A stretch of 41,340 bases of DNA from a virus (taxonomy: Duplodnaviria > Heunggongvirae > Uroviricota > Caudoviricetes), in IMG/VR virus record IMGVR_UViG_2778261227_000005, positions 1 through 41,340 of that record; one strand, 5' to 3'. The notes beneath the pieces were generated by a model, which saw only the letters and a program-made list of their open reading frames with translations, ran no database searches and was not told the origin of the DNA. The translations under genes were made by a program, and so were the position numbers. Below, in pieces: positions 1-19,468 of this stretch (positions within the stretch are counted from its first letter, which is position 1; each line of letters opens with the position of its first letter).

Positions 1-48
1 GAAAAACGAGTATTTTTAGTCATCCTGTTTACCTCTTTCTCAGGAAGT

Positions 49-2802
49 TTAGTCTCCAGGATTCCCGGGGCGGTTCAGAATGACTAGTTGTTGCCAATAA
101 ATTCGTAGGTCAGGAGCCCCGTTAGCTAAGCCTTTACCAAATTCGACGCGATACGGCATTCCATCCCGCAAAAAAAGATTAGGGCACAACTCATCAAGTC
201 CATGGGAAGATACTGCAAATTCGTGCCCCAACTTGAAAGCTTTGGCACAAAGTATTTTCCTGATTTCACTGAATTTATTAGTTCCTTGGTGCTCATAATC
301 AGCATCTAGAGCCCAAAAATCGCGCCTATTACTGAGTACATAAGCCATGATTGCCGAAACCAAGTCTTTAGGTTCTAATTCTCGTTCCAATGTCACAAGT
401 ATTTCCGGCAATGGTTCTACGTCTTCGTTATCTTTTCTTTTTGTATGGAAAAAGTAGATTGTTGAGCGGACAGCTTTCCAGCCTTCACCCCAAGGGCGAT
501 GGGCATGTAACTTACGAGCCGCATCAATTAATTTTGACCTTATTCCTCCATGACGCCAAATCCAGCGAAATTTATCAGCCAAGATCCGCCTGGCATCATC
601 TTCAAGCTCGGGCACTCCTGAGGTTCCTAATCTCACCAAAATATCGATGAAGGCGAATAGCCACGCAACAAGTTCATCGTAACTGGGTCGAAATCCATAA
701 TCTCTTGGCCTAGCACCAAACTCATTAATTCCGAATCCTGTCCACGGAGGTCCGCCGAGAGCAGTTTCAAGCATTTCGATCCCCATCCTTCTACGTTCGG
801 CCATACTTGAATCAATGCATTCATTCATGATCGCAACACGTTGTTCTAAAGAGGCATGGGTACCGGATAGATAAGGTTGGAAAAACCTCTTTATCTTATT
901 TCGAGCCGAATCATAATTATTGCTCGCGCTTTCCTGGTCTGCGATACGGATTAAGAGCTTAATGCATCGTTCAAAGTATTTCGATTCATATGCAAGTAAC
1001 TGCAACAATTTGATAATTGCTGTTCGTTGTGGGTTGTAGCGTGATTTAAAATGCTCAAAATTAGACGTAACAAGCGTTTCTTCAATCCTCTCAAGCAAAG
1101 TTCCTGGGGCAACTGGAGCGATATAATTTAGAATGCGTGTCGATACATCATCTAGGTCTATTATTTTTCCAAGCAGCCCTTCGGGCTGTAACCAAGCTTC
1201 AACAATCTCTTTAGCCACAGCATGGCTATGCAATAGTCCCAACCTGTGCGCGAACGACATCAATAATCGTTGCCGATCCGGAGCTTCAAAGGTCGTTCTA
1301 AGTTGATCAATCGGAATACTATTAAGTGCAGATGCTGCCAACTTGTTAGCAATGGCATGGGGAAGGATGGCTCTCCAGTGGGATCTTTTCTGAACAATGT
1401 GACGTTCCATCAACTTCGTAACAGCTTTGAATAACTGGATTTTGGGATACCCAGAGAGCACACCCAATATTTCCAGTTCATCGGTAGCTGCATCTGGACT
1501 AGATATCGAGAACGAATACACCAGTGACAATATTTCAGCTTGCTCCCGTAAATGGCCGTCGGGATGATTACGTTGTTCAAACAAGCGATTAAACAACTGC
1601 GCATCTGAAAGTAGGGCTAAACTCTCACCTTCTTCCACTCTTTCCGCTATAGCCAAAGCCACTCTTGCATTCCCATCTGCGAACTCTGCAATCCGACGGG
1701 CATTATTCTGACCAATAGAAGGGAAGCGACGGATAAGAAGTTGCTCTGCCACGTCTGGACCATCTGTCTCAATGTGGATGACCTCAGTTGTCTGTGGTTT
1801 GTCATCCCTAATGTCGTACTCGATCGTGATGAGACTTACTTCTTTCCCTGCGGCTGATACTTTGCTGGCAAGCGAAGCATGGAGTTCTGATGGGCAATTA
1901 TCAAGGATCATAATTGCTCGCCGGCCTTCAGCGAGCAGGTTATCAAGCATTGCTGTAGCCGACGGTACTGGCTCATAGCCAGTATCAACATAAATAGCTA
2001 CTGTTCGGTCAAGCGCATCTGTTCCAACAGTTTCATCAAAGAGCGCCTGAACGATTCGAGTCTTCCCAACACCAGACAATCCTGTAATACGAACAGCCTT
2101 GTTTGTCGAACGGATCAGTGCTCGCATTGGGTTAATTGCTTCATCAATTTTGAGTTTTTGCCCCTTTCCCGATGGTAAAGTAATGGTTACGCCTGGGGCT
2201 GAGATTAAAGTGTCTATAACACCTTGTGGTGGATTGCTCCAGGCTCCGTAGGGTTGCCAACCGGAATACCCTTGCCCAAGCTTTGCTTTTACCCACAGCA
2301 TGACTGATGGATGTTGGCGCAACCATTGGATGAGTTTGGAGCGGTCGTAGAAATCAAGATGAAGATAACTTTCGTTAGGATCATCTTTTACTGCATCCCT
2401 CATCGCTTTGAGACGATCCTTCTTTCCTGACGGCGAGCAATCATCACCCAGGCTGACAATGATGTAACTGCCTTGCTTTCTGGCTTGTTCAGAAATGATG
2501 GGAGAAAGTGCTTTGCCGGTGCCAATTTCCCTCTCAATTGCAGACTTAGGCATCTTATGTTTCTTTGCCTGAAAGACCGTATCAGGTCTTACAAGAAAGC
2601 CTGCTTTCAGTTGATCAATTGGAACCTGAACATGGATGTCAATTCCTCCGTCAGGGGCTGTAATTGAACCAGACCAATTTACACATGCTGGGCTATGGCC
2701 GTGCATTGCCACTTCAGCTTCTGCTAGCCGAGCGATCAGCTCTTCCAGCTGGATATCGGAGAGCCGAAGTAATTCGTCCTTTTCAATGTCAAAGATTGCC
2801 AC
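49..2802 (-). CDS. Mrr-like PD-(D/E)xK nuclease domain fused to P-loop NTPase with helical C-terminal region (917 aa); candidate STAND/Avs-like antiviral protein
   Basis: Uninterrupted 917-codon ORF. N-terminus has Mrr-type motifs (APDGGIDIHV ... VFQAKKHK), central Walker A GLSGVGKT and Walker B-like AIMILDNC, long C-terminal region with no motif I recognise. AT-richer than the prophage core. Family call from motif recall only. Confidence 0.7.
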   Translation of the reverse strand: MAIFDIEKDELLRLSDIQLEELIARLAEAEVAMHGHSPACVNWSGSITAPDGGIDIHVQVPIDQLKAGFLVRPDTVFQAKKHKMPKSAIEREIGTGKALSPIISEQARKQGSYIIVSLGDDCSPSGKKDRLKAMRDAVKDDPNESYLHLDFYDRSKLIQWLRQHPSVMLWVKAKLGQGYSGWQPYGAWSNPPQGVIDTLISAPGVTITLPSGKGQKLKIDEAINPMRALIRSTNKAVRITGLSGVGKTRIVQALFDETVGTDALDRTVAIYVDTGYEPVPSATAMLDNLLAEGRRAIMILDNCPSELHASLASKVSAAGKEVSLITIEYDIRDDKPQTTEVIHIETDGPDVAEQLLIRRFPSIGQNNARRIAEFADGNARVALAIAERVEEGESLALLSDAQLFNRLFEQRNHPDGHLREQAEILSLVYSFSISSPDAATDELEILGVLSGYPKIQLFKAVTKLMERHIVQKRSHWRAILPHAIANKLAASALNSIPIDQLRTTFEAPDRQRLLMSFAHRLGLLHSHAVAKEIVEAWLQPEGLLGKIIDLDDVSTRILNYIAPVAPGTLLERIEETLVTSNFEHFKSRYNPQRTAIIKLLQLLAYESKYFERCIKLLIRIADQESASNNYDSARNKIKRFFQPYLSGTHASLEQRVAIMNECIDSSMAERRRMGIEMLETALGGPPWTGFGINEFGARPRDYGFRPSYDELVAWLFAFIDILVRLGTSGVPELEDDARRILADKFRWIWRHGGIRSKLIDAARKLHAHRPWGEGWKAVRSTIYFFHTKRKDNEDVEPLPEILVTLERELEPKDLVSAIMAYVLSNRRDFWALDADYEHQGTNKFSEIRKILCAKAFKLGHEFAVSSHGLDELCPNLFLRDGMPYRVEFGKGLANGAPDLRIYWQQLVILNRPGNPGD

Positions 2803-3269
2803 TTTTAAACCCTATAAAAGATATTGCGACCATAGAAAAAGTTGCTCTTAGTCTAACCAATGAGGGAAGAGATGTCCGCTGAACATTTACAATTAAAACC
2901 ATCCACTTCAATTGGTTAAGATGTTCTGACTCAGAACTGTGATGTCGATCATACCTACTTTTACGTAGAGCTATCAGTATGTATGAAACTAAGGTCTAGT
3001 ATGAACAAAGGACAGGCTCATGCTTTATATGACTGTGAGGTTAACGAGCATTCTAGGTGCAAAAAGTTCCACTAACTTGATGATTTTTTATTCTTGAGGT
3101 GGTTTAGTGCGAGTTTAAAAATTTGGCTAATGTTTAAGATCAATAAATAAGTCCTGATTTTTTACTCTTTAGCAATTTTGTTAGCATTTTGTGTACATTA
3201 AAAATGAATTTTTAATATTAGTTTTTTTTAGATTTGGTTGTTTAAAATTTTATTGGGTGGAGTACCAAT

Positions 3270-6200
3270 ATGAAATGGATAAAAGCACTTAACCTTCAGC
3301 AATGGGCAGATTCTATTCCTGCAAAAGTTATTTTTCCAGCACTAATCGCTGATCTTATACGTGCAACGGCTAACAGTATTACTGAAATTAGATTTCCTAA
3401 TGGTGATAAGGGACAGGTTAGAGGTTATGACGGTGTACTTAAAGCCGAGGGGGTGGCCCCCTATGTTCCTGATGGCGACTCATTCTGGGAATTTGGTGTT
3501 AATGAAAAATTGCTTGATAAAGCTAACTTTGATTACGAAAAAAGAACACGCGAAGTTGCTCCAGAGATACGTCTAAAGACTACTTTTGTTTTCGCTTCAT
3601 TAAGAACATGGGATAATCCTAAGGTAAAGCTTGAAGACTGGCTACAAGAGAAACGCAATAGTGGTAAGTGGAAAGACATCAAATTAATTGATGGTTCTAT
3701 GCTTGAAGATTGGCTCGGTGTTTGCCCTGCTGTAGCTGCTTACTACGCTCGCTACCATCTTGAGCTAATGCCACAGGTTGGTGTTAGAAGCATTAAGGAG
3801 TTTTGGGATGAATTTTCCACTAAATTTAATCCCCCTTTAACTGAAGCAGTCTTGCTGGCGGGGAGAGAAAAGCAAAAAGAGCGTTTTCTGAATGAGTTAC
3901 GAGAAAATGGTCGAAAAATATCTTTAGCTGCAGATTCTCCGGATGAGGTTATTGCTTTTGCGATTGCAGCTATCAGAACCACTGAAGCGGAACTTCGACA
4001 TTCCTTTCAAAGTCGAGCACTAATTATTGATACGGATGATGCTGCAAGACAGCTTTCTGGAAAAAGAGGAATGATCTTCTTACCACGTGATCGAGCAAGA
4101 GCTTTAGCCGGTTTATTACAGCAAGCATCTATCACAGTAGTAAGTGCCGGAGCCGATGAAACACGAACTGATCACGAACTTCTGATCCGCCCAGATAGTA
4201 TATCTTTAGGTAAGGCTCTTGAATCTATGGGGTTTGATTCAGATAAAAGTTATCAAATAGCGCGGCAGTGTGGCCGAAGTTTGTCTGTTTTGGCTCGCCA
4301 GATATCAAGTAGCACGGCTGAATCACCTGAATGGAAAGACAGCCCTGAGTTGCTCCCTGCTTTATTAGCTGGTGCATGGAGTACATGTTCAGAGAAAGAT
4401 AAGTTAATTCTCAAGCAACTAGCTGGCTATACAGACTATTCTCAAGTTGAAAATCCATTAAGGCTATTAACAAAGCGCCGCGATTCTCCAATTGACCGAG
4501 TAGATGATATTTGGTCATTGCGTTCGTCGGTAGATGCTTTTGTACATTTAGGCTATTTGCTGGGTGAAGAACACCTGGAGCGTTTTGAGAAGGCCGTAAG
4601 AGAGGTTTTTTCCTATATTCCTGAACCACCAAAGGCCGAAGATCTGTTTGTACCTGACAATGGTATTAAAACGTCTTATAGCTCGTGGTTACGTAATGGA
4701 ATGACAACAGTTTTGCTACATATGGCAATATTACATGAACAGGCCGAATTCCGGGTTACTGGTATGACACCCCAAGATTTTGTTAACAAAATAGTTCAGA
4801 GTATTCCGGGACTTGCTAACGACCATCGACTATTTGTTAGTTTGCGAGATCAACTTCCGCTGCTGGCAGAAGCTGCCCCTGGCCCTTTCCTTGATGCCCT
4901 TGAGCAATTGCTTAAGGGCAATGGGGAAATGATTGCTCCAATATTCAATGAAGATAAAGGGCTGTTAACTCCTCGAAGTCATTATCATGGATTAAAATGG
5001 GCATTGGAAGCCTTGGCTTGGGAACAAACATATCTATTACGCGCTGCAATCTGTCTTGCAAAACTCGCTGTAATAGATCCCGGAGGAACTTACTCAGATC
5101 GCCCTCTTAATAGTTTAAGAACCATTTTTCTGGCATGGTCTCCTAATACATGGGCACCAGTAAAAGTTAGAAATGCAATTATAAAAAAAATTATCACTAT
5201 TGTTCCTAGTATTGGGTGGAGTTTGTTACAAAATCTCCTTCCTCGCTCCCATGATACCTCTGATCAAAACCAAAAAATGAAGTTCAGAGAGTCGGATAAA
5301 GATGTAGAAAAACTAACGTGGGGCGTTGTTTGGGAGGGGCAAATCTTTATTATCCAAGAAGCAATTAAACTTGCAGGTATACTCCCAACAAGATGGGAAA
5401 TCCTAATCTCTCATTTAAGCTCATTCCCTGAGAATGCAATAGATGAAACACTTTCTCATCTTGAACTTTGCCTTTCTCAACAAACTGAAGAGGATCAGTT
5501 CATCGTATGGGAGGCTTTGCGTCATGAGTATTCTCGCCATAAAAAATATTCAGATGCGAACTGGGCATTTAAATTTGAGTCTATGGAAAAAATAGCGAAA
5601 ATACTTGATAATTATAAACCAATTGACATGGTTAGAGCCAGTTTATGGATTTTCAATGATTGGGATTCTGATATTGAAGAGTCAATTGAAAATGCTGGCG
5701 GAATTTTTTCTTCTGTCGAAGAAATGCGAAGTGAAAAACTTAGGGAAATATACTTTACTTTAGGTTTGTCTGGGGTGAAAGACCTTTTTCAACAAGTTAA
5801 TAATGTTTTTATTGCAGCAAGGCATATATCAGCACTCTCGTTGGATGAAGAAAAATTAAATGATTTGTTTGTAATGCTTATTAACAACAAAAAAAATATT
5901 GATGAAGTTTGTGGGTTGTTAATGCAATATGGTGTTGAATGCTTTGGTGCTGAATGGCTTAATAAAATAAAAGTGTATTTTAAACAGTTTAAAATTACCC
6001 CTGATAGGGCTGGGAAAATCTTAGCATCGTTAAGAGACTCACAAGAGATATGGAGCATTATTGAAGGGTTTGAAGATAACATCAACGAAAAATATTGGTT
6101 GCAAAAACAACCCATTGCAATGATGGGTAAAACTTCGGATTTATTTGTTCTTATGGATAAATATATAGAAAGGGGCCGGGGTCTTGCTGCTATTATATCA

Positions 6201-7016
6201 GCAAATCAACGCCTTTCTGAGATTCCATCTACAACACTTTTATATCTTCTAGATATAGTCGTTAAAGAAATAAATAGCCAGGATATCCAATTTGATACAA
6301 TGCTATCGTACTATGTAAAAAAAGTTTTTGATGAACTCAAACAACGTAACGATGTTTCTGAAACAGATTTGGCATTTAAAGAAATGACCTACTTGCCTTG
6401 TTTTCCGGATAGCGATGAGCCACTTATCCTGCATCGTCTAATGATGAAAAAGCCAGAGGTTTTTATAGAAGCAATATGTATTGTATATCGTAGTGACGAA
6501 GATGAACAAACAGAACCATCGGAGTTGGAAGTTAAAAGAGCTACTTCTATATACAGATTACTTGAAAAATTACGAATACTACCAGGGCAGATAGACAATG
6601 AAATTGATCAAGATAAACTTGAAGATTGGTGTGAGAATGTACGCCATTTAGCAAAATTGCATCATCGCCAAGAAATCACTGATCATGTAATAGGAAAAAT
6701 TCTGGCACATGCCCCTAATAGCTCAGTAGATAATTCCTGGCCACATGAAGCAATTCGGCACATCATTGAAATATTATCTTCTGATGAGTTAGAGCAAGGT
6801 ATACAAATTGGTAGGTACAATAAAAGGGGGGTATTTGCTCGTATGCGTTACGAAGGTGGAAACCAAGAAAGGATATTAGCTGAGCAGTACCGAGAATGGG
6901 CAAATTCAATGCCCCACTGCGTCCGTACTTCTGCAATGCTATTTAGAATCGCTGACGAATGGGAATACTCAGCAAAAAACGCAGATATTCGAGCCGCAAA
7001 GGCTGATTTAAAATAG
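3270..7016 (+). CDS. Large hypothetical protein (1248 aa), no recognisable catalytic motif; candidate defence-island cargo
   Basis: Single 1248-codon ORF, strongly AT-rich, GGTGGAG RBS-like sequence upstream of ATG 3270. No Walker A (GxxxxGK[ST]) or helicase motif found on reading. Divergent from the 917-aa gene across a 467-bp AT-rich spacer. Confidence 0.8.
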   Translation: MKWIKALNLQQWADSIPAKVIFPALIADLIRATANSITEIRFPNGDKGQVRGYDGVLKAEGVAPYVPDGDSFWEFGVNEKLLDKANFDYEKRTREVAPEIRLKTTFVFASLRTWDNPKVKLEDWLQEKRNSGKWKDIKLIDGSMLEDWLGVCPAVAAYYARYHLELMPQVGVRSIKEFWDEFSTKFNPPLTEAVLLAGREKQKERFLNELRENGRKISLAADSPDEVIAFAIAAIRTTEAELRHSFQSRALIIDTDDAARQLSGKRGMIFLPRDRARALAGLLQQASITVVSAGADETRTDHELLIRPDSISLGKALESMGFDSDKSYQIARQCGRSLSVLARQISSSTAESPEWKDSPELLPALLAGAWSTCSEKDKLILKQLAGYTDYSQVENPLRLLTKRRDSPIDRVDDIWSLRSSVDAFVHLGYLLGEEHLERFEKAVREVFSYIPEPPKAEDLFVPDNGIKTSYSSWLRNGMTTVLLHMAILHEQAEFRVTGMTPQDFVNKIVQSIPGLANDHRLFVSLRDQLPLLAEAAPGPFLDALEQLLKGNGEMIAPIFNEDKGLLTPRSHYHGLKWALEALAWEQTYLLRAAICLAKLAVIDPGGTYSDRPLNSLRTIFLAWSPNTWAPVKVRNAIIKKIITIVPSIGWSLLQNLLPRSHDTSDQNQKMKFRESDKDVEKLTWGVVWEGQIFIIQEAIKLAGILPTRWEILISHLSSFPENAIDETLSHLELCLSQQTEEDQFIVWEALRHEYSRHKKYSDANWAFKFESMEKIAKILDNYKPIDMVRASLWIFNDWDSDIEESIENAGGIFSSVEEMRSEKLREIYFTLGLSGVKDLFQQVNNVFIAARHISALSLDEEKLNDLFVMLINNKKNIDEVCGLLMQYGVECFGAEWLNKIKVYFKQFKITPDRAGKILASLRDSQEIWSIIEGFEDNINEKYWLQKQPIAMMGKTSDLFVLMDKYIERGRGLAAIISANQRLSEIPSTTLLYLLDIVVKEINSQDIQFDTMLSYYVKKVFDELKQRNDVSETDLAFKEMTYLPCFPDSDEPLILHRLMMKKPEVFIEAICIVYRSDEDEQTEPSELEVKRATSIYRLLEKLRILPGQIDNEIDQDKLEDWCENVRHLAKLHHRQEITDHVIGKILAHAPNSSVDNSWPHEAIRHIIEILSSDELEQGIQIGRYNKRGVFARMRYEGGNQERILAEQYREWANSMPHCVRTSAMLFRIADEWEYSAKNADIRAAKADLK

Positions 7017-7050
7017 AAAGATTCAAAACCAAAATTAGAATAAATCATAA

Positions 7051-7074
7051 AAACCCTGCTTAAGAGCAGGGTTT
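7051..7074. terminator. Perfect 10-bp stem / 4-nt loop hairpin downstream of the 1248-aa gene; probable intrinsic terminator
   Basis: aaaccctgct-taag-agcagggttt is an exact inverted repeat, 35 nt after the stop at 7016; the following T-tract is weak (aacttcttt). Confidence 0.5.
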
Positions 7075-7154
7075 AACTTCTTTCAGCGTCATTTAAAATT
7101 GCAGACCTTCAGGTTAATCTACCCAAAAACAGAACGGGTTTTAGCTACGACATG

Positions 7155-7349
7155 TCATCCAACTAACCGCATTGCCTTTATCCCTCCTTCAATCATACTA
7201 CCGTGATCTGCAGCCATCACAAAATCAGCCCACCACTGCATCATAGGCCGTCGCTGCTCAAGATAATCACTACGGTTATACGCACGACGAACCTCATTCT
7301 TATCCACATGAGCAAGTGCAGCCTCAATAACATCAGGTGGAAATCCCTG
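7155..7349 (-). pseudogene. 3' fragment of a tyrosine integrase gene (C-terminal ~64 codons including the catalytic-Tyr region), truncated at the prophage boundary
   Basis: Minus-strand translation reads ...QGFPPDVIEAALAHVDKNEVRRAYNRSDYLEQRRPMMQWWADFVMAADHGSMIEGGIKAMRLVG*, matching the conserved C-terminal end of P4/CP4-57-type integrases (from memory). The frame has no start and is closed by a stop immediately upstream at 7353-7355. Confidence 0.6.
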
Positions 7350-7481
<132 letters not shown>

Positions 7482-7510: not shown

Positions 7511-7900
7511 TTACTCTTTTTTCTCCGTATCTACATCGGGTTCATCAGCAAATAGCTTGCCCTGCATCCGATCCAGTTCTTCTTTTCTTACCCGCTTAAC
7601 CACGCTGTAGACCCACTGAAGCGAAACACCAAATTTGCGGGCCAGTTCATGGTGGTTACGTCCGTTAAACTCCCTGAAGATTTCCCGGTCGCGCTGACTG
7701 ACCTTCCATACCATGCCCATCGGGAAATAAACGTTTTGCCCGCCCCAGACCTGCATCATGCGGTTCGCGACGGCCTGACCAATCTGGTCGGCAATTGCGG
7801 GCTCAATATCAATAATCTCGCGAACGGTTTCAGAGGTATGCTGTGCCAGTTCCACCAGGAGTTCCGGCCCTTTACTTCGAAACTGATTCAGGTCGCTCAT
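7511..7900 (-). CDS. mor: Mor/C-family transcriptional activator (middle/late operon regulator)
   Basis: 129 aa; pattern GGQNVYFP...RDREIFREFNGRNHHELARKFGVSLQWVYSVVKRVR matches the Mu Mor dimerisation and C-terminal HTH region as I recall it. Confidence 0.8.
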   Translation of the reverse strand: MSDLNQFRSKGPELLVELAQHTSETVREIIDIEPAIADQIGQAVANRMMQVWGGQNVYFPMGMVWKVSQRDREIFREFNGRNHHELARKFGVSLQWVYSVVKRVRKEELDRMQGKLFADEPDVDTEKKE

Positions 7901-8324
7901 GTTTTACTCCCGCAGCTCTGTGCTGCCACTTCTTCAGTTTCTCAATAACACTGCTTGCCTGTTCAGTATTGAGCCAGCGCAGGGCGCTGATGCCCGTTTC
8001 CCGCTTGATCCACCGCGCTAATGCATTTTCTGAACGGTCACGAACAATGCCGGCAGCAGCCATTTCAAGCCATAGCGCACGGATTTTCCTGGACTGCGGA
8101 TGGTTATCCAGCGGTAAACCGGAGCTGGCTTTTCTGGCAGGCTTAACGCGAAAGCCTTTCCTTTTCATGGATTCCAGCACGCAGTTTAGTTGTGTGGTAT
8201 CCATTCCTTTGGTTGAGGCTTTACCGGTCAGCCCCTGTAACATCTGGCGGTAGGTGTCTTCATCCATACCCAGTTCATTACGGGCAATATGAATGAGCTG
8301 GATAAGACGTTGTTTAGTCATCAT
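7872..8324 (-). CDS. gemA: Mu GemA/gp16-like protein (DUF1018)
   Basis: Translation MMTKQRLIQLIHIARNELGMDEDTYRQMLQ... is typical of Mu gp16/GemA; start placed at ATG 8324 with AAGGAG 5 nt upstream (the track ORF extends to 8363). Confidence 0.7.
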   Translation of the reverse strand: MMTKQRLIQLIHIARNELGMDEDTYRQMLQGLTGKASTKGMDTTQLNCVLESMKRKGFRVKPARKASSGLPLDNHPQSRKIRALWLEMAAAGIVRDRSENALARWIKRETGISALRWLNTEQASSVIEKLKKWQHRAAGVKHERPESVSK

Positions 8325-8529
8325 CGTTGCTCCTTTTACCTGCGCCACCGATATAATCGACATATAAAGGAAGCGCCACAGGCCAGCACAGGAACATCAC
8401 CGACCAGCTAATCCAGTAGCCGGCACCACTGTAACGTGAATAAAACCCTGAACGGCGGTGCAGTTCAGCAGTACACCAACCGACAAAACAATACCAGAAC
8501 AGGGCACATACAACAGATTCAGCCGTCAT
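8314..8529 (-). CDS. Small hydrophobic protein (~71 aa), putative membrane protein
   Basis: Internal Met of track ORF 8314..8685; hydrophobic segment CALFWYCFVGWC and WISWSVMFLCWPVALPLYV. Start choice uncertain. Confidence 0.4.
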   Translation of the reverse strand: MTAESVVCALFWYCFVGWCTAELHRRSGFYSRYSGAGYWISWSVMFLCWPVALPLYVDYIGGAGKRSNDDD

Positions 8530-11131: not shown

Positions 11132-12325
11132 TTAAACCCCTTTGACAACGTCAGCGTTGACCTGTGGAACCCCGATTTCAGCGGCCAGATTCATGGCGGC
11201 TATTACCAGGTTACTGACGGCCAGCGGATACAGCAGGCTGACCATATTTTTACTATGACTTCCCGGATTGCTCAGGCGGGTACGTATGGCATCCACTGCG
11301 CTGGCGTCCATAATGTCCGTCAGTTGTTTACCGGCCCGTTGCAGTTTGAACGTCAGAAATTCTTCAAGGTGATTGTCCAGAGGCAGAAGTTCGACCACCT
11401 CACAGCGCTGAACGACTTCGCGGACTTCCATGTTGCGTTCAGACAGTTTTGTCGCCAGTTCCGGCTGGCCAATCAGCACGATGGACAGCAGCTTTTTGAA
11501 ACCGGACTCCAGCTCAAAAAAGCGTTTGAGGTGTTTCAGTGTCGGAATGGGCAGACTGTGAGCCTCCTCAATCACCAGAACGTGGCTGAACCCCGCCTGG
11601 CTGCTGTCTTTCAGGACGCGATGCAACTGGCGAAAGCGGGCGTCCTGACTGCGTCTGATGCTTTCCAGTGGTGCGATGGTACTGATAATGGCTTCGGCAA
11701 TCGCTGCTGCCTTCAGAGTTTTCCCTTTCACATCGTTGTCTTCCATAGCGATGACGTATGGCTCGATAACAATTACCGGCGCATTCTCGCGGTTGATACG
11801 TTCAGTCAGGTCGCGGCGCAGCGTGGATTTACCCGCACCGGACTCACCGATGACGGCCATAAACCCACCATGACGGGCTGTCTGGTACAACGCCTCACGC
11901 ACGTAGCGAATGTCCGGGGTGGTGAACACATCATCAGAACCCTGCATGGCTTCGTCGGCGAACGGGTCACGGAAAAGACCAAACGCTTTTTTGGTTGCTG
12001 GAAATAACACCTGTTTTTTGAGTAACATATTCTCTTCCTCACTGAGGCTCGTTTTATCTGTGGTACCCGCTGTACGGGGCGTGGCCGCGCCCTGTACAGC
12101 ATCAAAACTCTTCGTTGTATCAATCCCCTGACTTTCCAGCCAGGACGCAAGACGCCGGCGCACTTCTCCGGGGCTGGTGCGGGGCCACGCGTTATGATTC
12201 ACAATCTGGGCCAGCGTGGCCTCAGAAACATCGACAGCTCTCGCCACCACCGCCTGTGGAATACGTGCCTCTTTCAGTTGCTGCTTCAGTACCAGCATGT
12301 TTCCCTCCTCAGTTGCCGTTAACAA
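11132..12325 (-). CDS. Transposition ATPase, MuB-like target DNA activator (397 aa)
   Basis: Walker A VIGESGAGKST, AAA+-like core, N-terminal HTH-like region; lies immediately downstream of the transposase and overlaps it by 17 nt. Confidence 0.8.
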   Translation of the reverse strand: MLTATEEGNMLVLKQQLKEARIPQAVVARAVDVSEATLAQIVNHNAWPRTSPGEVRRRLASWLESQGIDTTKSFDAVQGAATPRTAGTTDKTSLSEEENMLLKKQVLFPATKKAFGLFRDPFADEAMQGSDDVFTTPDIRYVREALYQTARHGGFMAVIGESGAGKSTLRRDLTERINRENAPVIVIEPYVIAMEDNDVKGKTLKAAAIAEAIISTIAPLESIRRSQDARFRQLHRVLKDSSQAGFSHVLVIEEAHSLPIPTLKHLKRFFELESGFKKLLSIVLIGQPELATKLSERNMEVREVVQRCEVVELLPLDNHLEEFLTFKLQRAGKQLTDIMDASAVDAIRTRLSNPGSHSKNMVSLLYPLAVSNLVIAAMNLAAEIGVPQVNADVVKGV

Positions 12326-14078
12326 TGCTGATAACGCTGCTGCGGGCCGGCGTGGTCAGCGTGGCCATGACTTCATCCAGTGCGGCTTCCGGTACGCCGT
12401 CCGGGTACTGTGCCGTTAACTGGCGGTAATGTTCCGGCGTCCAGGTAAGGCCGTTGGCGCTGAACTTCCCGCGCAGAGCTTTCGCGGCCTCCACATGAGT
12501 CATGGGACGCTGTTCAGTGCGCGTTCCGCGTACGTCAGAGGCCTGGCCTCGCTTCGGCATATAGGCCGGAAGTGTGGCGTCATCAATATGTTTATACGGG
12601 TCAAGCCGCCCGCCGAACGGCAGCGCCTTCGCCTTGCGTGCGGCAGCTGCATCTGCGGCGTTGTCTGTACTGGTGACCAGCGCTTCGGTTTCTTTTGCCG
12701 CCATCTGCGCCGGGGTTTCCGGCAGGGCTTTGTAACTTTCGCCAAATACCGCCGCGCCTTCAGCAAAGCCAAACTCGTTCTTTCTGACCTCTTCGACCAG
12801 GAAGAACGTCTCGTGGCCGTCCTCACCGGTCAGAACCACCTGTGCCACATCGCTGCGCCACGGGTTACGGGTAATCATCAGTTTTTCACCGACCAGTACG
12901 CCCGGTACCGTTGATACGTCAAATTCAGTGCCCCGGAACGAGACACGAAGTTTTGGCGTGACTTTGCGGAGTTCTGGTGCCGCCACAGCCAGTTCACGAC
13001 ATACCTCAACGGAAGGCGCTTTTTTCAGCTGCTCAGCAGTAATCTTCAGCCAGATATCCGTGCGGGTTTTACCGTGGCGGCTGTGAACAGCCGTGGCGTT
13101 AAAGTGGCTGCGCCATTTCGCGGCCAGCGCGTTGAGTTCTTCCAGACTGTGAACCGGCCGGAACTTCAGACCCGGCTCCAGCTTGCGTTCGATAATGTCA
13201 CGCGCCTTTTCCACCTGTCCGGTGGCGCGGGCGTTATGCGGCTTGTGCGCTATCAGGTCAATGCCCAGTGAGCGGCACATGTTTTTCGTCATACCCGCGG
13301 TGTTTGCCGAGCCGGGGTCGAGATAGAGTATTTTTGGCACGCCGTGCAGCACGTCTGCGCCGCCACGCTCCTGCATGGCGTTGATAAGCACAGAACACAG
13401 GTTCTCACCGGATTCCGCACCCGTCACATACTCAACGTAAATCCAGCCGCTGGCATGGTCGGTAATCTCGTAACTCCACACGCGGTCACTGGCGATACGG
13501 GCAAGGTTAGCGGGTTTGTTCTTGTAGAACTTCGCGCTGTCCATCACCTGCAGCCCTTTGTGTCCATTGCTCAGGTAGTAAAGCGTGCAGAGCGAGGCAT
13601 CAATCTGCCAGACATGATTGGGATGCAGACTGGCCACTTCGGTATGCGGCGCAGGGGCATCCAGTTGTTCCGGGTGCAGGCCATAGTTACGCAGGGCACG
13701 ACTGATGGCATCTTCGGACAACGGGAAAAACTCACCGGTGGTTTCATCTGTTCTGCCTGCGGAGATAAAGCCGTTAGCCCGCAGGGTTTCCACTGCATCC
13801 GCGATGGAATAGAGACGCTTACCGTTCTTGCGGGTGGCCTCACGTAGTGTGGCAGATATCAGCGCGGCTTCGTCGCGGGTCAGGGCGCTGCGCCCGGCAT
13901 CGGCGCGTTTTTTGCGTTTATCAGTCACAGATACCTCCTTCAGCCTGCGCAGCAGAGTGGCGCGGGACATGCCAAGTTCAGCACAGGCAGCGTCGTATAT
14001 TGCACCGCGTTTACCATGCCCCGCGTCACGTGCCGCGCGGGCGACATAAACCAGTCGTTCAGTCAGGGCAGCATTCAT
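12309..14078 (-). CDS. Mu-type DDE transposase (MuA-like, 589 aa)
   Basis: N-terminal DNA-binding region, RNase H-like core with HVWQIDAS and ILYLDPGSANTA motifs; positioned ner - x - A - B as in transposable phages. Confidence 0.85.
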   Translation of the reverse strand: MNAALTERLVYVARAARDAGHGKRGAIYDAACAELGMSRATLLRRLKEVSVTDKRKKRADAGRSALTRDEAALISATLREATRKNGKRLYSIADAVETLRANGFISAGRTDETTGEFFPLSEDAISRALRNYGLHPEQLDAPAPHTEVASLHPNHVWQIDASLCTLYYLSNGHKGLQVMDSAKFYKNKPANLARIASDRVWSYEITDHASGWIYVEYVTGAESGENLCSVLINAMQERGGADVLHGVPKILYLDPGSANTAGMTKNMCRSLGIDLIAHKPHNARATGQVEKARDIIERKLEPGLKFRPVHSLEELNALAAKWRSHFNATAVHSRHGKTRTDIWLKITAEQLKKAPSVEVCRELAVAAPELRKVTPKLRVSFRGTEFDVSTVPGVLVGEKLMITRNPWRSDVAQVVLTGEDGHETFFLVEEVRKNEFGFAEGAAVFGESYKALPETPAQMAAKETEALVTSTDNAADAAAARKAKALPFGGRLDPYKHIDDATLPAYMPKRGQASDVRGTRTEQRPMTHVEAAKALRGKFSANGLTWTPEHYRQLTAQYPDGVPEAALDEVMATLTTPARSSVISIVNGN

Positions 14079-15606: not shown

Positions 15607-16038
15607 GTGGAATTACGCAAAATGAATAACAAAGATGTTAACGCTGTGCTTTCCCGGTTAATGTCACTATTCCAAGCAGAGAATGATAGTGAGTTGGCAA
15701 GAGCGCTTAACGTCAACAGGCAGACACTTGCAAGTTGGAGGAAGCGTGATTCTGTGCCTTATGCAATTTGCATAAACATCGCAGAAGAAAAGGGGGTTTC
15801 TTTAGATTGGTTGCTAACAGGTAGAAAACAAGGTTTATCAAAAGAAGTAGACGTAACTCCGACGCAAGTGCAGTTTAGCCAAGCTGACCTTACTATGCTT
15901 GAGCTTTTAAAGCAGCTAGACCCCGAGGTTCGTAACGATCTTCTGCGAGGCGCTGCGGAAAAACAGCGAGTGATCGAGATGGAAAAACAACTGAAGGAAT
16001 TATCCGCAACGATTGAGCGGTTAAAAAATGTGGGTTAA
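15607..16038 (+). CDS. CI-like phage repressor (HTH, phage_CI_repr-type N-terminal domain)
   Basis: LARALNVNRQTLASWRKRDSVPYAICINIAEEKGVSLDWLLTG is typical of the phage CI-repressor HTH; divergent from ner. Frame opens with GTG at 15607; ATG at 15622 is an alternative start; no clear RBS, so possibly leaderless. Confidence 0.75.
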   Translation: MELRKMNNKDVNAVLSRLMSLFQAENDSELARALNVNRQTLASWRKRDSVPYAICINIAEEKGVSLDWLLTGRKQGLSKEVDVTPTQVQFSQADLTMLELLKQLDPEVRNDLLRGAAEKQRVIEMEKQLKELSATIERLKNVG

Positions 16039-16160: not shown

Positions 16161-17054
16161 ATGAGTGGTGATGTGAGAAATTATCGTATTGAGTTTCATC
16201 AGCTATCGTTTAAGGCCACAGATCAGCTGGCAAATCTCGGAGATTCTTTTCAATCTGTAATTGATAAACAGAGCCCTTCCTCTTCAAACCATGAGGGTTT
16301 TACTAGAGAAATTTGGGGGTTGAAAAAACGCGCGGATGGTTCTTTTAGTGGAGAGTTGAGAAAATTTCGCAACTCGAACATTCCAGATAAAGGTGCACCA
16401 GGGAAACAGTCTACCCCTATTCCACTTGCCAAGGATGAAGGGATCATTGAGCGCAATTTCTTTGTATTCTATCCCCGAATCAATGTTATAGGTTGGCACT
16501 ATAATCATATGGCTTGTGGTATAAGCCGTTTTAGTGCATTTCTTTCAACTATCTTTGGTTCAAAGGTTAAGCCCGCACCTTTGCTGGAAAAAGATGCAAT
16601 CGCTAGGCTTATGAGAGGAGATGTCAAAATGAAAAAAATCCAGTTGACGATTCCTCGCCCCCGTAATCCTGAGTTTTACCCTGATACTGATTTCAGTCAA
16701 AAGACACTACAACTGCTTGGTGATGCAGGTGCCGATACAATGCAAATTGTAATGGGGATTAATACTCGCCGTGGCGATAGTGATGGTAGGCTTAAGCAGA
16801 ATATAAAATTTGCTATGCAAGAGTTAGTCGAGTTTGGGGCGAAAAAGGCTGTAATTGATGTGTTCGATGCTGATGGTGTTGTCCATCCTGTGGATTTGAT
16901 TGCCGAGCGTATTTCGTCCTATCAATCGGTGGTTACTGACGCTCGTTTCCCTCCAGCCGAAACCATGTACCGTCTAATCGATACTGCGTATGCTGAAAAC
17001 CGGGAGAGTATCAATGCATATATTGGAGAAGATGAACTCGGCCCTATTGCTTAG
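16161..17054 (+). CDS. Hypothetical soluble protein (297 aa); RexA-like by position and partner, not by demonstrated homology
   Basis: AT-rich ORF immediately downstream of the repressor on the same strand; overlaps the following 4-TM gene by 41 nt; no catalytic motif recognised. Confidence 0.75.
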   Translation: MSGDVRNYRIEFHQLSFKATDQLANLGDSFQSVIDKQSPSSSNHEGFTREIWGLKKRADGSFSGELRKFRNSNIPDKGAPGKQSTPIPLAKDEGIIERNFFVFYPRINVIGWHYNHMACGISRFSAFLSTIFGSKVKPAPLLEKDAIARLMRGDVKMKKIQLTIPRPRNPEFYPDTDFSQKTLQLLGDAGADTMQIVMGINTRRGDSDGRLKQNIKFAMQELVEFGAKKAVIDVFDADGVVHPVDLIAERISSYQSVVTDARFPPAETMYRLIDTAYAENRESINAYIGEDELGPIA

Positions 17055-17451
17055 TTTATTGATTGGATGTGGGATTGGTTTTCTCTACTGGTTCAAGTTG
17101 CCCCATATGCCAGTAGCCGCAATCCCAAACTTCATGACTACATTGTCCAGTGTCTTTGCAACGTTGTTAGGTTTTATTATTACAGCAATTGCACTACTTG
17201 CATCATTGCTTGATAAACCGTTACTTAAAAACATGCAAAAAACCGGACATTACAAGCGTCTGATGACCGATGCATTCTACACTTGCTTAGTTTTGCTAGT
17301 GTTGGTGTTGACATGTTTGATTGGGTTGATGCTGCAAAGTAAGCATCAAGAGATTGTAGCCGCTATCCTCATTGGGCTTGTTGTTATGTCTATGTTGTGT
17401 TTATTACAAACAGGTAGGCGATTATTCAATATAATCAAAGTGATATCATAA
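17014..17451 (+). CDS. Small 4-TM membrane protein (~146 aa); RexB-like by architecture
   Basis: Four hydrophobic segments (LLLSLLIGCGIGFLYWF; FATLLGFIITAIALLASLL; YTCLVLLVLVLTCLIGLML; IVAAILIGLVVMSMLCLL). Start chosen at ATG 17014 with GGGAGAG 5-7 nt upstream; the track ORF begins at 16990. Confidence 0.7.
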   Translation: MHILEKMNSALLLSLLIGCGIGFLYWFKLPHMPVAAIPNFMTTLSSVFATLLGFIITAIALLASLLDKPLLKNMQKTGHYKRLMTDAFYTCLVLLVLVLTCLIGLMLQSKHQEIVAAILIGLVVMSMLCLLQTGRRLFNIIKVIS

Positions 17452-17503
17452 CAATGCACCATCAGGTGCATTGTTATGCAAGACTACTTACCTCCTTCTG
17501 AGC

Positions 17504-18271
17504 CTACTCTAAATTACTTACAATAAGTTCGCGCCGTAGTGTTCCCTTTCCTGCAAGACTGTAGTTGACCTTCACACAGTGAATGTTCAGACCGTTAAAA
17601 ACCTGCCGCATTTCCGGGATATCGTTGACCGATATAATCATCTTTCCTCTGATGCAACGGGCCAGCTCTGCCAACCGCGAGTAGTTCCCTTCAGGAAAAT
17701 CCACACCATAGCCTTCCGTACCCAGGTACGGTGGGTCGCAGTAGAACAGCGTGTGCGGACGGTCATAACGCTCAATGCACTGTTGCCAGTCCATGTGTTC
17801 TATCACCGTTCTGGAAAGTCGCAGGTGTGCCGCTGAGAGCTCTTCCTCAATACGCAGCAGGTTGAAGCGTGGCGGGGATGTGGTGGAGGTGCCGAAACTA
17901 TGCTCTGCCACCTTGCCACCAAACGCCTGCTTCTGGAGGTAGTAGAACCGTGCTGCACGCTGGATATCCGTCAGGGTTTCCTCCGGGGTGATCTGCAGCC
18001 ATTTGTAGATCTGCCGGCTAACCAGCGCCCATTTGAACTGGCGGACAAATTCTTCTAGGTGATGCTTTACCACCCGATACAGATTTACCAGTTCACCGTT
18101 GATATCGTTAATGACTTCGATCTTACCTGGTGTCTTAAGAAAATAGAGCGCAGCTGCGCCGCAGAACGGCTCCACATAACATTCATGCGCTGGAAACAGC
18201 GGCAGAATGTGTTTTGCCAGGCGGCGTTTGCCCCCAATCCATGGAACGATGGGTAATGTCTGCATTTTCAT
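17504..18271 (-). CDS. dam: Dam-family N6-adenine DNA methyltransferase (D12 class), no cognate nuclease adjacent
   Basis: WIGGKRRL, motif I EPFCGAAALYF and motif IV DPPY in Dam-like order; 255 aa. Confidence 0.85.
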   Translation of the reverse strand: MKMQTLPIVPWIGGKRRLAKHILPLFPAHECYVEPFCGAAALYFLKTPGKIEVINDINGELVNLYRVVKHHLEEFVRQFKWALVSRQIYKWLQITPEETLTDIQRAARFYYLQKQAFGGKVAEHSFGTSTTSPPRFNLLRIEEELSAAHLRLSRTVIEHMDWQQCIERYDRPHTLFYCDPPYLGTEGYGVDFPEGNYSRLAELARCIRGKMIISVNDIPEMRQVFNGLNIHCVKVNYSLAGKGTLRRELIVSNLE

Positions 18272-18312
18272 AATCTGTAAGCCTTTTACAATTACTAAAA
18301 ATATGGCAGGCT

Positions 18313-18335
18313 AGTCTGGTCTCGCGAGACTGACT
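18313..18335. repeat. Imperfect palindrome AGTCTGGTCTCGCGAGACTGACT in the Dam / zinc-ribbon divergent region
   Basis: Core GTCTCGCGAGAC (18319-18330) is a perfect 12-bp palindrome; possible regulator site or hairpin. Confidence 0.3.
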
Positions 18336-18472
18336 GAACCTCGGTCGGCTCACAGCCACTTCTGTGGGACGATGGCCAGTCCGGCTTTCGGGTGCCGGGC
18401 TGGTCGTTCTTTCATGATGCGGCAGGAATGAAGTGATTTCTGTTAATGTGGTTTAGAGGATATCGGGGTGCT

Positions 18473-18967
18473 ATGGATACAAACGCTTTATTAACAGCTC
18501 TTGGCTATATCAGCAGTACTGCTCAGAAAATAATAAAAGAGCGTGATCAAATAAAACAGGCCGCTTTGACCAGTGAATTACAGAGTAAAATTATTGAAGC
18601 ACAGGGGCAGTTCTTTGAGGTAACGAGCAAGCTAGGAGAACAGCAAAAAACCATTACCAATCTGGAAGAGAAAATTCGCTCTCTGGAAGACCTTCTTAAC
18701 TTTCGCGGTAATTATAAACTGACGTTACTGAGTGAAGAAAAAGGCTTCTATGCTTATCGTTATACGGGAAACGATGAAACTGAACATTATATTTGCCAGA
18801 CTTGTTTTGATTCCAAAAACCTGAAAAGTATCCTGCGTATACGGAAAGACAGTTTTTGCATGTGTCCGGTTTGTGGTCAAAACAGTGCTGTATGGTTGAA
18901 AGGAGAGCCAAATCCAGTTCGTATCAGGTCTCGTAAGAGGGATGACTTCTATGATGGTTTTATCTAG
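18473..18967 (+). CDS. Coiled-coil protein with C-terminal zinc ribbon (~164 aa), unknown function
   Basis: AT-rich ORF; Cys cluster CQTCF ... CMCPVCG; predicted coiled coil in the N-terminal half. Start at ATG 18473 (track ORF begins at 18446). Confidence 0.6.
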   Translation: MDTNALLTALGYISSTAQKIIKERDQIKQAALTSELQSKIIEAQGQFFEVTSKLGEQQKTITNLEEKIRSLEDLLNFRGNYKLTLLSEEKGFYAYRYTGNDETEHYICQTCFDSKNLKSILRIRKDSFCMCPVCGQNSAVWLKGEPNPVRIRSRKRDDFYDGFI

Positions 18968-18993
18968 TTGTTATCCACGGTTTTATACAAGTA

Positions 18994-19029
18994 ATCCTGT
19001 GGGTGGTGTGTTTTTATCATCCACAGGAT
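18994..19029. terminator. Inverted repeat ATCCTGTGG...CCACAGGAT with T-rich loop between convergent genes; candidate bidirectional terminator
   Basis: 9-bp perfect arms at 18994-19002 and 19021-19029; loop contains tgtttttat. Confidence 0.35.
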
Positions 19030-19042
19030 ACCGATAATATTT

Positions 19043-19468
19043 TTACTTTTCTGTAGATTTAATAACCTTACATAATTCCATTAAAACCAGCTCCTGATCG
19101 TATAATACGAACAATGCAGCAATTGCGGCATGTACAGCATCGGGCAGTATCCAGGGGTTCTTGCCTTCGGGACATATAACTTCCAGCAGTGCATTCGTCA
19201 GGCAAATGCGCTCTTCACTATATGATAGAGTTACCCGCTCAGTGTATTCTTCCAGTCGGATAATTGTACCTGCCCGTGGTTTCTGCCATGTGCTCAGATC
19301 ATCCCCACTCATACGGCGCTCATTCTCCACGTCAGCAGCATCGACAATGACGCTGTTTCCGGGTTCCTGTTTCACCATCTCTTCTATCCGCGCCAGTACG
19401 TAACTTTTACCGCTGCCCACAGGACCGGACACGGTGACAGTGATGACCGGATTCAGTGTCTGCGTCAT
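19043..19468 (-). CDS. Small P-loop protein (141 aa), unknown function
   Basis: Walker A VSGPVGSGKSY near the N-terminus; no other motif recognised; convergent with the zinc-ribbon gene. Confidence 0.6.
   Translation of the reverse strand: MTQTLNPVITVTVSGPVGSGKSYVLARIEEMVKQEPGNSVIVDAADVENERRMSGDDLSTWQKPRAGTIIRLEEYTERVTLSYSEERICLTNALLEVICPEGKNPWILPDAVHAAIAALFVLYDQELVLMELCKVIKSTEK

What the first reader, a model, noticed from the sequence alone, without database searches (positions are those of the whole stretch)
49..2802. Mrr-nuclease / P-loop NTPase / helical C-terminus fusion protein (Avs-like candidate)
The 917-aa protein combines an N-terminal Mrr-type PD-(D/E)xK motif set (PDGGID ... QAK), a Walker A/B NTPase core (GLSGVGKT, MILDN) and a ~550-aa C-terminal region with no motif I recognise. 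This is the effector-NTPase-sensor logic of STAND/Avs antiviral proteins, but it is shorter than the Avs proteins I know. It sits in an AT-rich island next to an integrase remnant.
Basis: partly seen in the sequence, partly recalled or inferred. Interest (0 to 1): 0.65.

Follow-up and report, generated by a model that had tools for sequence, protein, structure and literature searches.

The report
IS629-truncated copy of Avs8A defence gene
The 917-aa ORF is a copy of the already characterised E. coli antiphage protein Avs8A (PD-λ-4A, normally 1283 aa) cut short by an IS629 insertion, so it is a known defence gene that is most likely dead here, not a new short Avs-like protein.

Summary
It is not a new protein. 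It matches PADLOC's PD-Lambda-4_A model at 1877 bits, but only over positions 1-908 of 1283. It is 907/908 identical to WP_000963924.1, the ECOR07 Avs8A protein. Published work on that protein shows that it binds HK97-fold major capsid proteins (lambda gpE), then degrades dsDNA in a Mg/ATP-dependent way through its N-terminal Mrr-type nuclease.

Identity to intact genes stops exactly at window base 78. Bases 77->1 are the outermost 77 nt of IS629, including its 25-nt terminal inverted repeat and the start of orfA. The last 9 codons and the stop codon come from the IS. The missing 375 residues are about 22 confidently modelled helices of the alpha-solenoid sensor, and they are conserved in about 76 of 80 relatives across phyla.

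The window is a whole draft contig that breaks inside the IS, so what lies beyond it is unknown.

The "short Avs" is an insertion-truncated, probably non-functional allele of a known system. Interest is low.

Side observations: the divergent 1248-aa neighbour has no detectable domain, and a Mu-like prophage inserted in the island's integrase encodes a gpE-family capsid protein.

The parts
1..77 (-). Left end of IS629 (IS3 family). The terminal inverted repeat TGAACCGCCCCGGGAATCCTGGAGA is at 77->53, and the orfA start codon ATG is at 23..21. The contig ends inside orfA.
   Evidence: 100% match to IS629 ends in thousands of E. coli/Shigella records with different flanks. A complete copy in pCP301, annotated IS629 ORF1/ORF2, has the same 25-nt sequence as its terminal inverted repeat and spans 1306 bp.
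49..2802 (-). The 917-codon ORF of the finding: truncated avs8A (PD-lambda-4A) plus 9 IS-encoded codons (LNRPGNPGD) and an IS-encoded TAA stop at 51..49.
78..2802 (-). Native avs8A sequence, codons 1-908 plus the first base of codon 909. It differs from E. coli 55989 by one SNP (window 1101, giving A568T).
   Evidence: PADLOC PD-Lambda-4_A 1877 bits, protein 1-908 = profile 1-908 of 1283. 907/908 identity to WP_000963924.1. Single difference mapped.
2158..2802 (-). N-terminal effector domain (aa 1-215), a Mrr-type PD-(D/E)xK nuclease. Motif PDGGID is at 2638..2655 and QAK at 2563..2571.
   Evidence: D51, D55, Q78 and K80 are invariant family-wide. The same DGGID...QAK(R/K) motifs occur in E. 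coli Mrr itself and are aligned in register by hhalign, though not significantly. Nuclease activity and the active-site mutant phenotype are published for the identical protein.
1243..2157 (-). P-loop NTPase module (aa 216-520). Walker A GLSGVGKT is at 2059..2082 and Walker B IMILDN at 1897..1914.
   Evidence: Invariant G241/S243/G244/G246/K247/D301/N302. Sub-threshold hits to AAA_16, nSTAND3 and NPHP3_N. Best PDB profile hit is the Roq1 NB-ARC P-loop, not significant. Classed as STAND/AVAST in the literature.
79..1242 (-). Remnant of the helical (alpha-solenoid, TPR-like) sensor, aa 521-908. The break falls inside a predicted helix.
   Evidence: AF2 models. The truncation point, full-length residue 908, corresponds to P0068 residue 789, which lies within helix 780-793. 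Foldseek hits are HEAT/ARM-type solenoids, with Avs4 8dgf_B at rank 16.
2803..3269 (.). AT-rich 467-bp intergenic region between avs8A and the divergent 1248-aa gene. It presumably holds the native avs8A promoter.
   Evidence: The promoter role is inferred. PD-lambda-4 is reported to be H-NS repressed in ECOR34.
3270..7016 (+). Context, not part of Avs8: a 1248-aa protein of unknown function, divergent neighbour in the ssrA island.
7155..7349 (-). Context: 3' remnant (last ~64 codons) of the ssrA-island integrase, cut by insertion of a Mu-like transposable prophage whose end lies at ~7349/7350.

Best explanation
This is an insertion-inactivated allele of avs8A (PD-lambda-4A), a single-protein STAND-type antiphage sensor-nuclease. 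In the intact 1283-aa protein, the C-terminal alpha-solenoid wraps a monomer of an HK97-fold major capsid protein (for example lambda gpE). With ATP and Mg2+ the protein is activated (a tetramer is predicted). The N-terminal Mrr-type nuclease then degrades dsDNA, which stops virion production (abortive infection). All of this is shown in the literature for a protein 907/908 identical over the retained part. In this genome IS629 transposed into codon 909. The ORF reads 9 codons into the IS and stops, which removes the last 375 residues, about 22 helices of the sensor. Inferred: the truncated product cannot close around the capsid protein or fold its solenoid properly, so it is a non-functional pseudogene. 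A constitutively active nuclease would be lethal and would not be observed. The gene sits in an AT-rich island at ssrA. That island has also lost its integrase to a Mu-like prophage insertion, so the whole island is decaying.
For: PADLOC PD-Lambda-4_A 1877 bits covering only 1-908 of 1283. 907/908 identity to WP_000963924.1, which is the accession of the characterised ECOR07 Avs8A. Identity to the intact locus is perfect down to base 78 and then stops. The break coincides with the outermost base of the IS629 terminal inverted repeat. 94 of the 120 closest homologs are exactly 1283 aa. In 80 loci from many phyla the family ORF has a median length of 1282 aa, and homology reaches residue ~1283 in about 76 of 80. 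The C-terminal part is a confident solenoid (pLDDT 80-92), and the break is inside a helix. The exact 917-aa product occurs on this one contig only, within a 1345-member cluster. avs8A is independently interrupted by IS3-family, IS2 and IS21/IS100 elements, or reduced to remnants, in other complete E. coli genomes. Mechanism from the literature: gpE binding KD 127 nM, MCP-, Mg- and ATP-dependent dsDNase, loss of defence in nuclease active-site mutants, Avs8B dispensable. The sensor binds the MCP A-domain in AF3 models.
Against: No experiment or published truncation shows that residues 909-1283 are required. The published transposon insertions that abolish the gpE response are all upstream (nt 629, 1068, 1300). 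The contig ends 77 nt into IS629, so I cannot show whether the 3' part of avs8A and avs8B follow the IS. I also cannot rule out that the insertion is present in only part of the sequenced population. My own structure model of the N-terminal half was poor (pLDDT 23-50). Pfam, PDB and hhalign tests did not independently establish the Mrr or STAND folds.
Confidence: 0.87

Rival explanations
1. The truncated protein keeps some activity. It might be a partial sensor with narrower or altered specificity, a dominant-negative partner of another Avs, or a leaky nuclease held in check by H-NS silencing.
For: The nuclease domain, the NTPase and about half of the sensor (aa 521-908) are intact, with a single conservative difference from the reference. 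The native promoter region is retained. PD-lambda-4 is reported to be H-NS repressed, which could allow a mildly toxic allele to be tolerated.
Against: The break is inside a helix of a continuous solenoid. The lost region is conserved across phyla. No other genome carries this allele, so there is no sign of selection for it. STAND sensors envelop their targets over extensive interfaces.
Confidence: 0.07
2. The junction is an assembly artefact or a minority variant. The genome actually carries intact avs8A, and the contig was wrongly joined to, or ended at, an IS629 k-mer.
For: The window is a whole draft contig (41,340 nt) that ends exactly 77 nt into a high-copy repeat. That length looks like an assembler k-mer overlap (inference).
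Against: The junction falls precisely at the first base of the IS629 terminal inverted repeat. A real transposition produces this; a random mis-join does not. If avs8A were intact, the unique sequence would have let the contig continue through it. Other complete genomes show similar IS insertions in this gene.
Confidence: 0.04
3. It is a naturally shorter, functional Avs-like protein.
For: It is a complete ORF with start and stop codons and intact catalytic motifs.
Against: The last 9 codons and the stop are IS629 sequence. All close and distant relatives are about 1283 aa.
Confidence: 0.02

Closest known systems
Avs8A / PD-lambda-4A of E. coli ECOR07 (WP_000963924.1). Vassallo et al. 2022 (PMC9519451) defined the two-gene system. 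It was characterised in bioRxiv 10.1101/2025.07.02.662641 and 10.64898/2026.01.04.697583.
   Same: Same gene: 907/908 identical over residues 1-908. Same ssrA-island locus and same divergent neighbour as in E. coli 55989, O104:H4 and FORC strains. Same Mrr-type nuclease, Walker A/B and sensor N-terminal half.
   Different: It lacks residues 909-1283 because of the IS629 insertion. The Avs8B gene is not in the window. There is one substitution, A568T. Function is presumably lost.
Avs4 (Mrr-like nuclease-STAND-TPR sensor; PDB 8DGF) and other AVAST proteins
   Same: Same tripartite logic: N-terminal nuclease effector, STAND NTPase, C-terminal helical-repeat sensor that binds a conserved phage structural protein and triggers oligomerisation. 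8dgf_B appears among the Foldseek hits.
   Different: No detectable sequence similarity. The fold-search hit is weak (TM ~0.12, and the model is poor in the N-terminal half). The target differs (major capsid protein rather than portal). Avs8A is reported to need ATP hydrolysis, unlike Avs4.
E. coli Mrr (Type IV restriction enzyme, Pfam Mrr_cat PF04471)
   Same: Shares the catalytic signature: Mrr has GDGGIDG...VYVQAKRW and Avs8A has APDGGIDI...VFQAKKH, each followed by a hydrophobic strand (GVFITTS / SYIIVS).
   Different: No Pfam Mrr_cat hit for this protein or for 36 relatives. hhalign E = 0.14. The hairpin between the two motifs is 7 residues longer. The domain is fused to an NTPase-sensor rather than a winged-helix DNA-binding domain.

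Membership tests
Avs8A / PD-lambda-4A | Significant match to the PD-Lambda-4_A profile | tested here: met
   1877 bits, E = 0, protein 1-908 to profile 1-908 of 1283. Each sub-domain matches separately.
Avs8A / PD-lambda-4A | Orthology with the experimentally characterised protein (ECOR07 WP_000963924.1) | tested here: met
   907/908 identical. Accession link. Same chromosomal island.
Avs8A / PD-lambda-4A | Complete ~1283-aa architecture including the whole C-terminal sensor | tested here: not met
   The protein ends at native residue 908, and an IS629 junction lies at base 78/77. Relatives are ~1283 aa.
Avs8 / PD-lambda-4 system | Downstream partner gene Avs8B (PD-Lambda-4_B) | tested here: inconclusive
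   Present in intact loci (544 bits), but the window/contig ends in the IS before its expected position. It is dispensable for defence and found in only 7 of 80 related loci.
Avs8 / PD-lambda-4 system | Capsid-protein-triggered DNase activity and phage protection | not testable with these tools
   Published for the intact protein. Not known for this allele.
STAND NTPase (AVAST) | Conserved Walker A and Walker B | tested here: met
   GLSGVGKT and hhhhDN are invariant across 37 diverse members.
STAND NTPase (AVAST) | Significant profile match to a STAND NTPase family (NACHT, NB-ARC, AAA_16, nSTAND) | tested here: inconclusive
   Only sub-threshold hits: AAA_16 20.9 bits against a cut-off of 32.6, nSTAND3 13 bits, NPHP3_N 17 bits. 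AAA_16 is sub-threshold in 20 of 37 members. Roq1 NB-ARC P-loop E = 0.08. The classification rests on published phylogeny.
STAND NTPase (AVAST) | Effector - NTPase - large repeat sensor arrangement | tested here: met
   Domain order comes from the motifs and the models. The C-terminus is a confident alpha-solenoid that matches HEAT/ARM solenoids.
Mrr-like PD-(D/E)xK nuclease | Catalytic D...(D/E/Q)xK signature, conserved | tested here: met
   D51/D55 ... Q78-A-K80 are invariant. The DGGID and QAK strings are identical to those in E. coli Mrr.
Mrr-like PD-(D/E)xK nuclease | Significant match to Pfam Mrr_cat, or to a profile of genuine Mrr homologs | tested here: inconclusive
   No Pfam hit even at E <= 10 for the isolated domain, and none in 37 members. 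hhalign aligns the motifs in register but with E = 0.14 and a shallow Mrr profile.
Mrr-like PD-(D/E)xK nuclease | Restriction-endonuclease-like alpha-beta-beta-beta-alpha-beta fold | tested here: inconclusive
   The AF2 models have pLDDT 23-50 in this domain. The predicted strands at 54-59, 76-81 and 113-118 carry the motifs, but the model is too poor for a fold search.
IS629 (IS3 family) | Terminal inverted repeat and orfA start at the element's end | tested here: met
   Window 77->1 is identical to the left end of annotated IS629 copies. The 25-nt IR pairs with the right end 1306 bp away in pCP301.

The most novel reading that the evidence does not exclude
The truncation is not neutral decay. 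One version: loss of Avs8A was selected because the strain carries a Mu-like prophage, 4.5 kb away, whose major head protein belongs to the lambda gpE family that triggers Avs8. Another version: the 1-908 fragment has acquired a new role, for example as a dominant-negative regulator of STAND immunity. Independent IS hits in avs8A in other E. coli would then reflect a recurrent defence/prophage conflict.
Probability: 0.05. Interest if true: 0.45.

Novelty: already known. Interest (0 to 1): 0.12.

Why it matters
It matters little in itself, because Avs8/PD-lambda-4 is a described and biochemically characterised capsid-sensing STAND nuclease. The practical lesson is for annotation. A clean ORF with intact catalytic motifs can be an IS-truncated pseudogene whose stop codon lies in the IS, and defence-system finders that score only the A-gene profile could count it as functional. 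It also adds one example to the recurrent IS-mediated loss of avs8A in E. coli, which bears on how costly such sensors are to keep.

Tried and rejected
1. Pfam and NCBIfam on the whole protein and on separate domains gave no significant family, only sub-threshold P-loop hits.
2. PDB sequence and profile searches with two alignments found no relatives.
3. AF2 of the 917-aa product with a 26-sequence alignment (>=71% identity) gave pLDDT 59, and the N-terminal half was unusable. I therefore ran no fold search on the nuclease or NTPase domains. With hindsight, the deeper family found later would have made a better alignment, but those proteins cannot be submitted to the predictor.
4. Foldseek of the second model found only generic solenoids, plus Avs4 at low TM.
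5. hhalign against genuine Mrr homologs aligned the motifs but was not significant.
6. The published transposon map was checked for evidence that the C-terminus is essential. All insertions lie upstream of the break, so it is uninformative.
7. A search for the same avs8A-IS629 junction or the same integrase-prophage junction in 5426 complete E. coli genomes found none.
9. I considered whether the 1248-aa gene or Avs8B is a conserved partner of Avs8A and rejected it. They were found in 2 of 80 and 7 of 80 loci, and no neighbour family occurs in more than 9 of 80.
Full report
OBSERVATION. It runs 49..2802 on the minus strand, has a GTG start and is 917 codons long. The named motifs are present at residues 50-55 (PDGGID), 78-80 (QAK), 241-248 (GLSGVGKT) and 298-302 (MILDN). 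In an alignment of 37 family members only 32-60% identical to it, D51, D55, Q78, K80, G241, S243, G244, G246, K247, D301 and N302 are invariant, so the motifs are functional signatures and not chance strings. The island is AT-rich: 45.4% GC in the gene and 41.2% over 78-7355, against 54.3% in the adjacent prophage. A 3' remnant of an integrase gene lies at 7155-~7349.

WHAT IT IS. PADLOC gives a decisive match to PD-Lambda-4_A (1877 bits). The protein covers only positions 1-908 of the 1283-position model. BLAST against complete E. coli genomes shows the same 7.3-kb stretch (window 78-7355, 99.96% identical) in E. coli 55989, the O104:H4 outbreak strains, the FORC strains and others. There the gene encodes the 1283-aa protein WP_000963924.1 and is followed by a 248-aa gene. 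That second gene is PD-Lambda-4_B. The window's product is 907/908 identical to WP_000963924.1 over residues 1-908. The only nucleotide difference in the island is at window 1101, giving A568T. WP_000963924.1 is the accession given for ECOR07 Avs8A in the paper that characterised the system.

THE TRUNCATION. Aligned with the intact gene, the window is identical down to base 78 and unrelated from base 77 on. Bases 77->1, read on the minus strand, are TGAACCGCCCCGGGAATCCTGGAGACTAAACTTCCTGAGAAAGAGGTAAACAGGATGACTAAAAATACTCGTTTTTC. This string occurs at 100% identity in thousands of E. coli and Shigella chromosomes and plasmids with different flanks. In pCP301 it lies at the start of the element annotated IS629 ORF1/ORF2, and its first 25 nt form the terminal inverted repeat with a partner 1306 bp away. 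The break therefore coincides with the outermost base of IS629, which is the signature of a true transposition. Codon 909 is split (C|TG), nine IS-encoded codons follow (LNRPGNPGD), and the TAA stop at 51..49 is IS sequence. The IS629 orfA start codon is at 23..21, in the same orientation as avs8A.

The window is a complete draft contig (NLUL01000039.1 of GCA_002232775.1, 41,340 nt). It ends inside the repeat, so what follows the IS is unknown. The exact 917-aa product is on record only for this contig, inside a 1345-member 90%-identity cluster whose members are mostly 1283 aa. No complete E. coli genome has the same junction.

IS THE MISSING PART IMPORTANT? Of the 120 closest homologs, 94 are exactly 1283 aa. 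A HMMER scan of 1.8 billion representatives with the N-terminal domain finds 1189 clusters, and those listed are mostly 1250-1300 aa. In 80 loci from Gamma-, Alpha- and Betaproteobacteria, Paenibacillus, cyanobacteria and others, the family ORF has a median of 1282 aa, and tblastn homology to E. coli Avs8A reaches residue ~1283 in about 76 of 80. An AF2 model of P0068, an E. coli variant that contains the whole C-terminus, shows a continuous all-alpha solenoid. pLDDT is 80-92 over the region that corresponds to full-length residues ~720-1280. The truncation point (908, which is P0068 residue 789) lies inside helix 780-793, and about 22 helices are lost. Foldseek finds HEAT/ARM-type solenoids (SF3B1, CAND1, importins), with Avs4 (8dgf_B) at rank 16 and a low TM-score. 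The published transposon insertions that abolish the gpE response lie at nt 629, 1068 and 1300, all upstream of the break, so they do not test the C-terminus. Loss of function is therefore inferred, not shown.

MECHANISM (from the literature on the intact protein). Avs8 expressed from its native promoter protects against lambda and several BASEL phages and prevents transformation with plasmids expressing lambda gpE or related HK97-fold capsid proteins. Avs8A alone is sufficient and Avs8B is dispensable. Purified Avs8A binds gpE (KD 127 nM) and Bas21 MCP (14 nM). With MCP, Mg2+ and ATP (not AMP-PNP) it degrades linear dsDNA. Assembled virions do not activate it. Nuclease active-site mutants lose defence. 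AlphaFold3 favours a tetramer. [quoted passage not shown] PD-lambda-4 is also reported to be H-NS repressed in ECOR34.

INDEPENDENT DOMAIN TESTS. These were weaker than the literature claims.
- Pfam gives no Mrr_cat hit for the protein, for the isolated domain at E <= 10, or for any of 37 relatives.
- The NTPase gives only sub-threshold hits: AAA_16 (in 20 of 37 members), nSTAND3 and NPHP3_N.
- PDB profile searches give nothing significant. The best hit is the NB-ARC P-loop of the plant NLR Roq1 at E = 0.08.
- E. coli Mrr itself carries GDGGIDG...VYVQAKRW. hhalign against 39 Mrr homologs aligns DGGID, QAK and the following hydrophobic strand in register, but at E = 0.14 with a shallow Mrr profile.
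- The AF2 models are too poor in the N-terminal half (pLDDT 23-50) for a fold test.
So the Mrr and STAND assignments rest on invariant motifs here, plus published analyses and biochemistry.

CONTEXT. Avs8A is the only gene family common to the 80 related loci. No neighbour family is present in more than 9, and the commonest are integrases and transposases. Avs8B-like genes occur in 7 of 80 loci, all Enterobacterales. This is a stand-alone, horizontally mobile defence gene, not a housekeeping one. In complete E. coli genomes avs8A is present in 152 of 5426. It is independently interrupted by IS3-family, IS2 and IS21/IS100 elements, or reduced to fragments, in a number of them.

In this contig the island has taken a second hit. 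A Mu-like transposable prophage is inserted in the integrase gene at ~7349/7350. It encodes a MuA-like transposase (12309..14078), a MuB-like protein (11132..12325), and Gam, GemA and Mor homologs. The same phage end is found in aceK, prpR, irp2 and other sites in other strains.

VERDICT. But it is the known Avs8A, and its unusual shortness is caused by an IS629 insertion. The most likely state is a pseudogene (confidence about 0.87). Novelty: already known. Interest is low (0.12).

Noticed in passing
window 3270-7016 (+): A 1248-aa protein divergent from avs8A (WP_000871158/9) belongs to a well-conserved family of ~1250 aa (431 hits; 45-60% identity in Burkholderia, Cupriavidus, Ralstonia, Polynucleobacter, Stenotrophomonas, Methylococcaceae). 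It has no Pfam, NCBIfam, PADLOC or PDB match in any of 35 members, and only PHROG phrog_18693 'unknown function'. It has many invariant W/R/D/E residues. It is not a conserved partner of Avs8A (2 of 80 loci). It is a candidate uncharacterised island/defence gene and probably the most novel thing in the locus.
   Followed up: partly
L084 6353-8884 (Paenibacillus ferrarius), next to the Avs8A homolog at 10001: A distant relative (26% identity over residues 366-1211) of the 1248-aa protein lies divergently and immediately upstream of an Avs8A homolog in a Firmicute. This is the same arrangement as in E. coli. It could be coincidence within defence islands or a hint of linkage.
   Followed up: no
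window ~7349-41340: A Mu-like transposable prophage is inserted into the 3' part of the ssrA-island integrase gene. It carries Mor 7511-7900(-), GemA 7872-8363(-), Gam, a MuB-like gene 11132-12325(-), a MuA-like transposase 12309-14078(-), a CI-type repressor 15607-16038(+), and late genes on the + strand from ~19.9 kb (terminase, portal, protease, major head, sheath, tape measure). Early and late genes are divergent, unlike Mu itself. The closest phages are Escherichia phage PhiKM (95%) and Klebsiella KP12 (86%). The same end is inserted at many different loci in other E. coli.
   Followed up: partly
window 28186-29139 (+): The prophage major head protein matches Pfam Phage_cap_E (the lambda gpE family) above the gathering score (24.2 against 22.9 bits) and PHROG 1005. 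Lambda gpE is the published trigger of Avs8, so a potential trigger is encoded 25 kb from the inactivated sensor. Whether this is more than coincidence was not tested.
   Followed up: partly
window 16161-19468: A low-GC stretch (42-46%) lies between the prophage repressor and the late genes. It contains a D12-class Dam methyltransferase (17504-18271, -) and four ORFs with no Pfam match (16161-17054, 16990-17451, 18446-18967, 19043-19468). These could be prophage cargo or moron genes.
   Followed up: partly
complete E. coli genomes, e.g. H63, H64, H82, H89, H97, H98: avs8A is present in 152 of 5426 complete genomes. In several it is independently interrupted by different IS elements (IS3-family, IS2, IS21/IS100kyp), and in others it is reduced to 95-1900-nt remnants. 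This suggests recurrent loss of the gene.
   Followed up: partly
protein P0068 (E. coli, 1164 aa): This is an Avs8A variant with an in-frame internal deletion of residues ~343-452, the region after the NTPase core. It is otherwise ~98-100% identical. It looks like another natural loss-of-function form.
   Followed up: no
window 1-77: The window is an entire draft contig, and exactly 77 nt of IS629 are present at its end. This is probably the assembler's k-mer overlap into a collapsed repeat (inference). Contig-end ORFs like this one deserve a routine check for IS-derived stop codons.
   Followed up: yes
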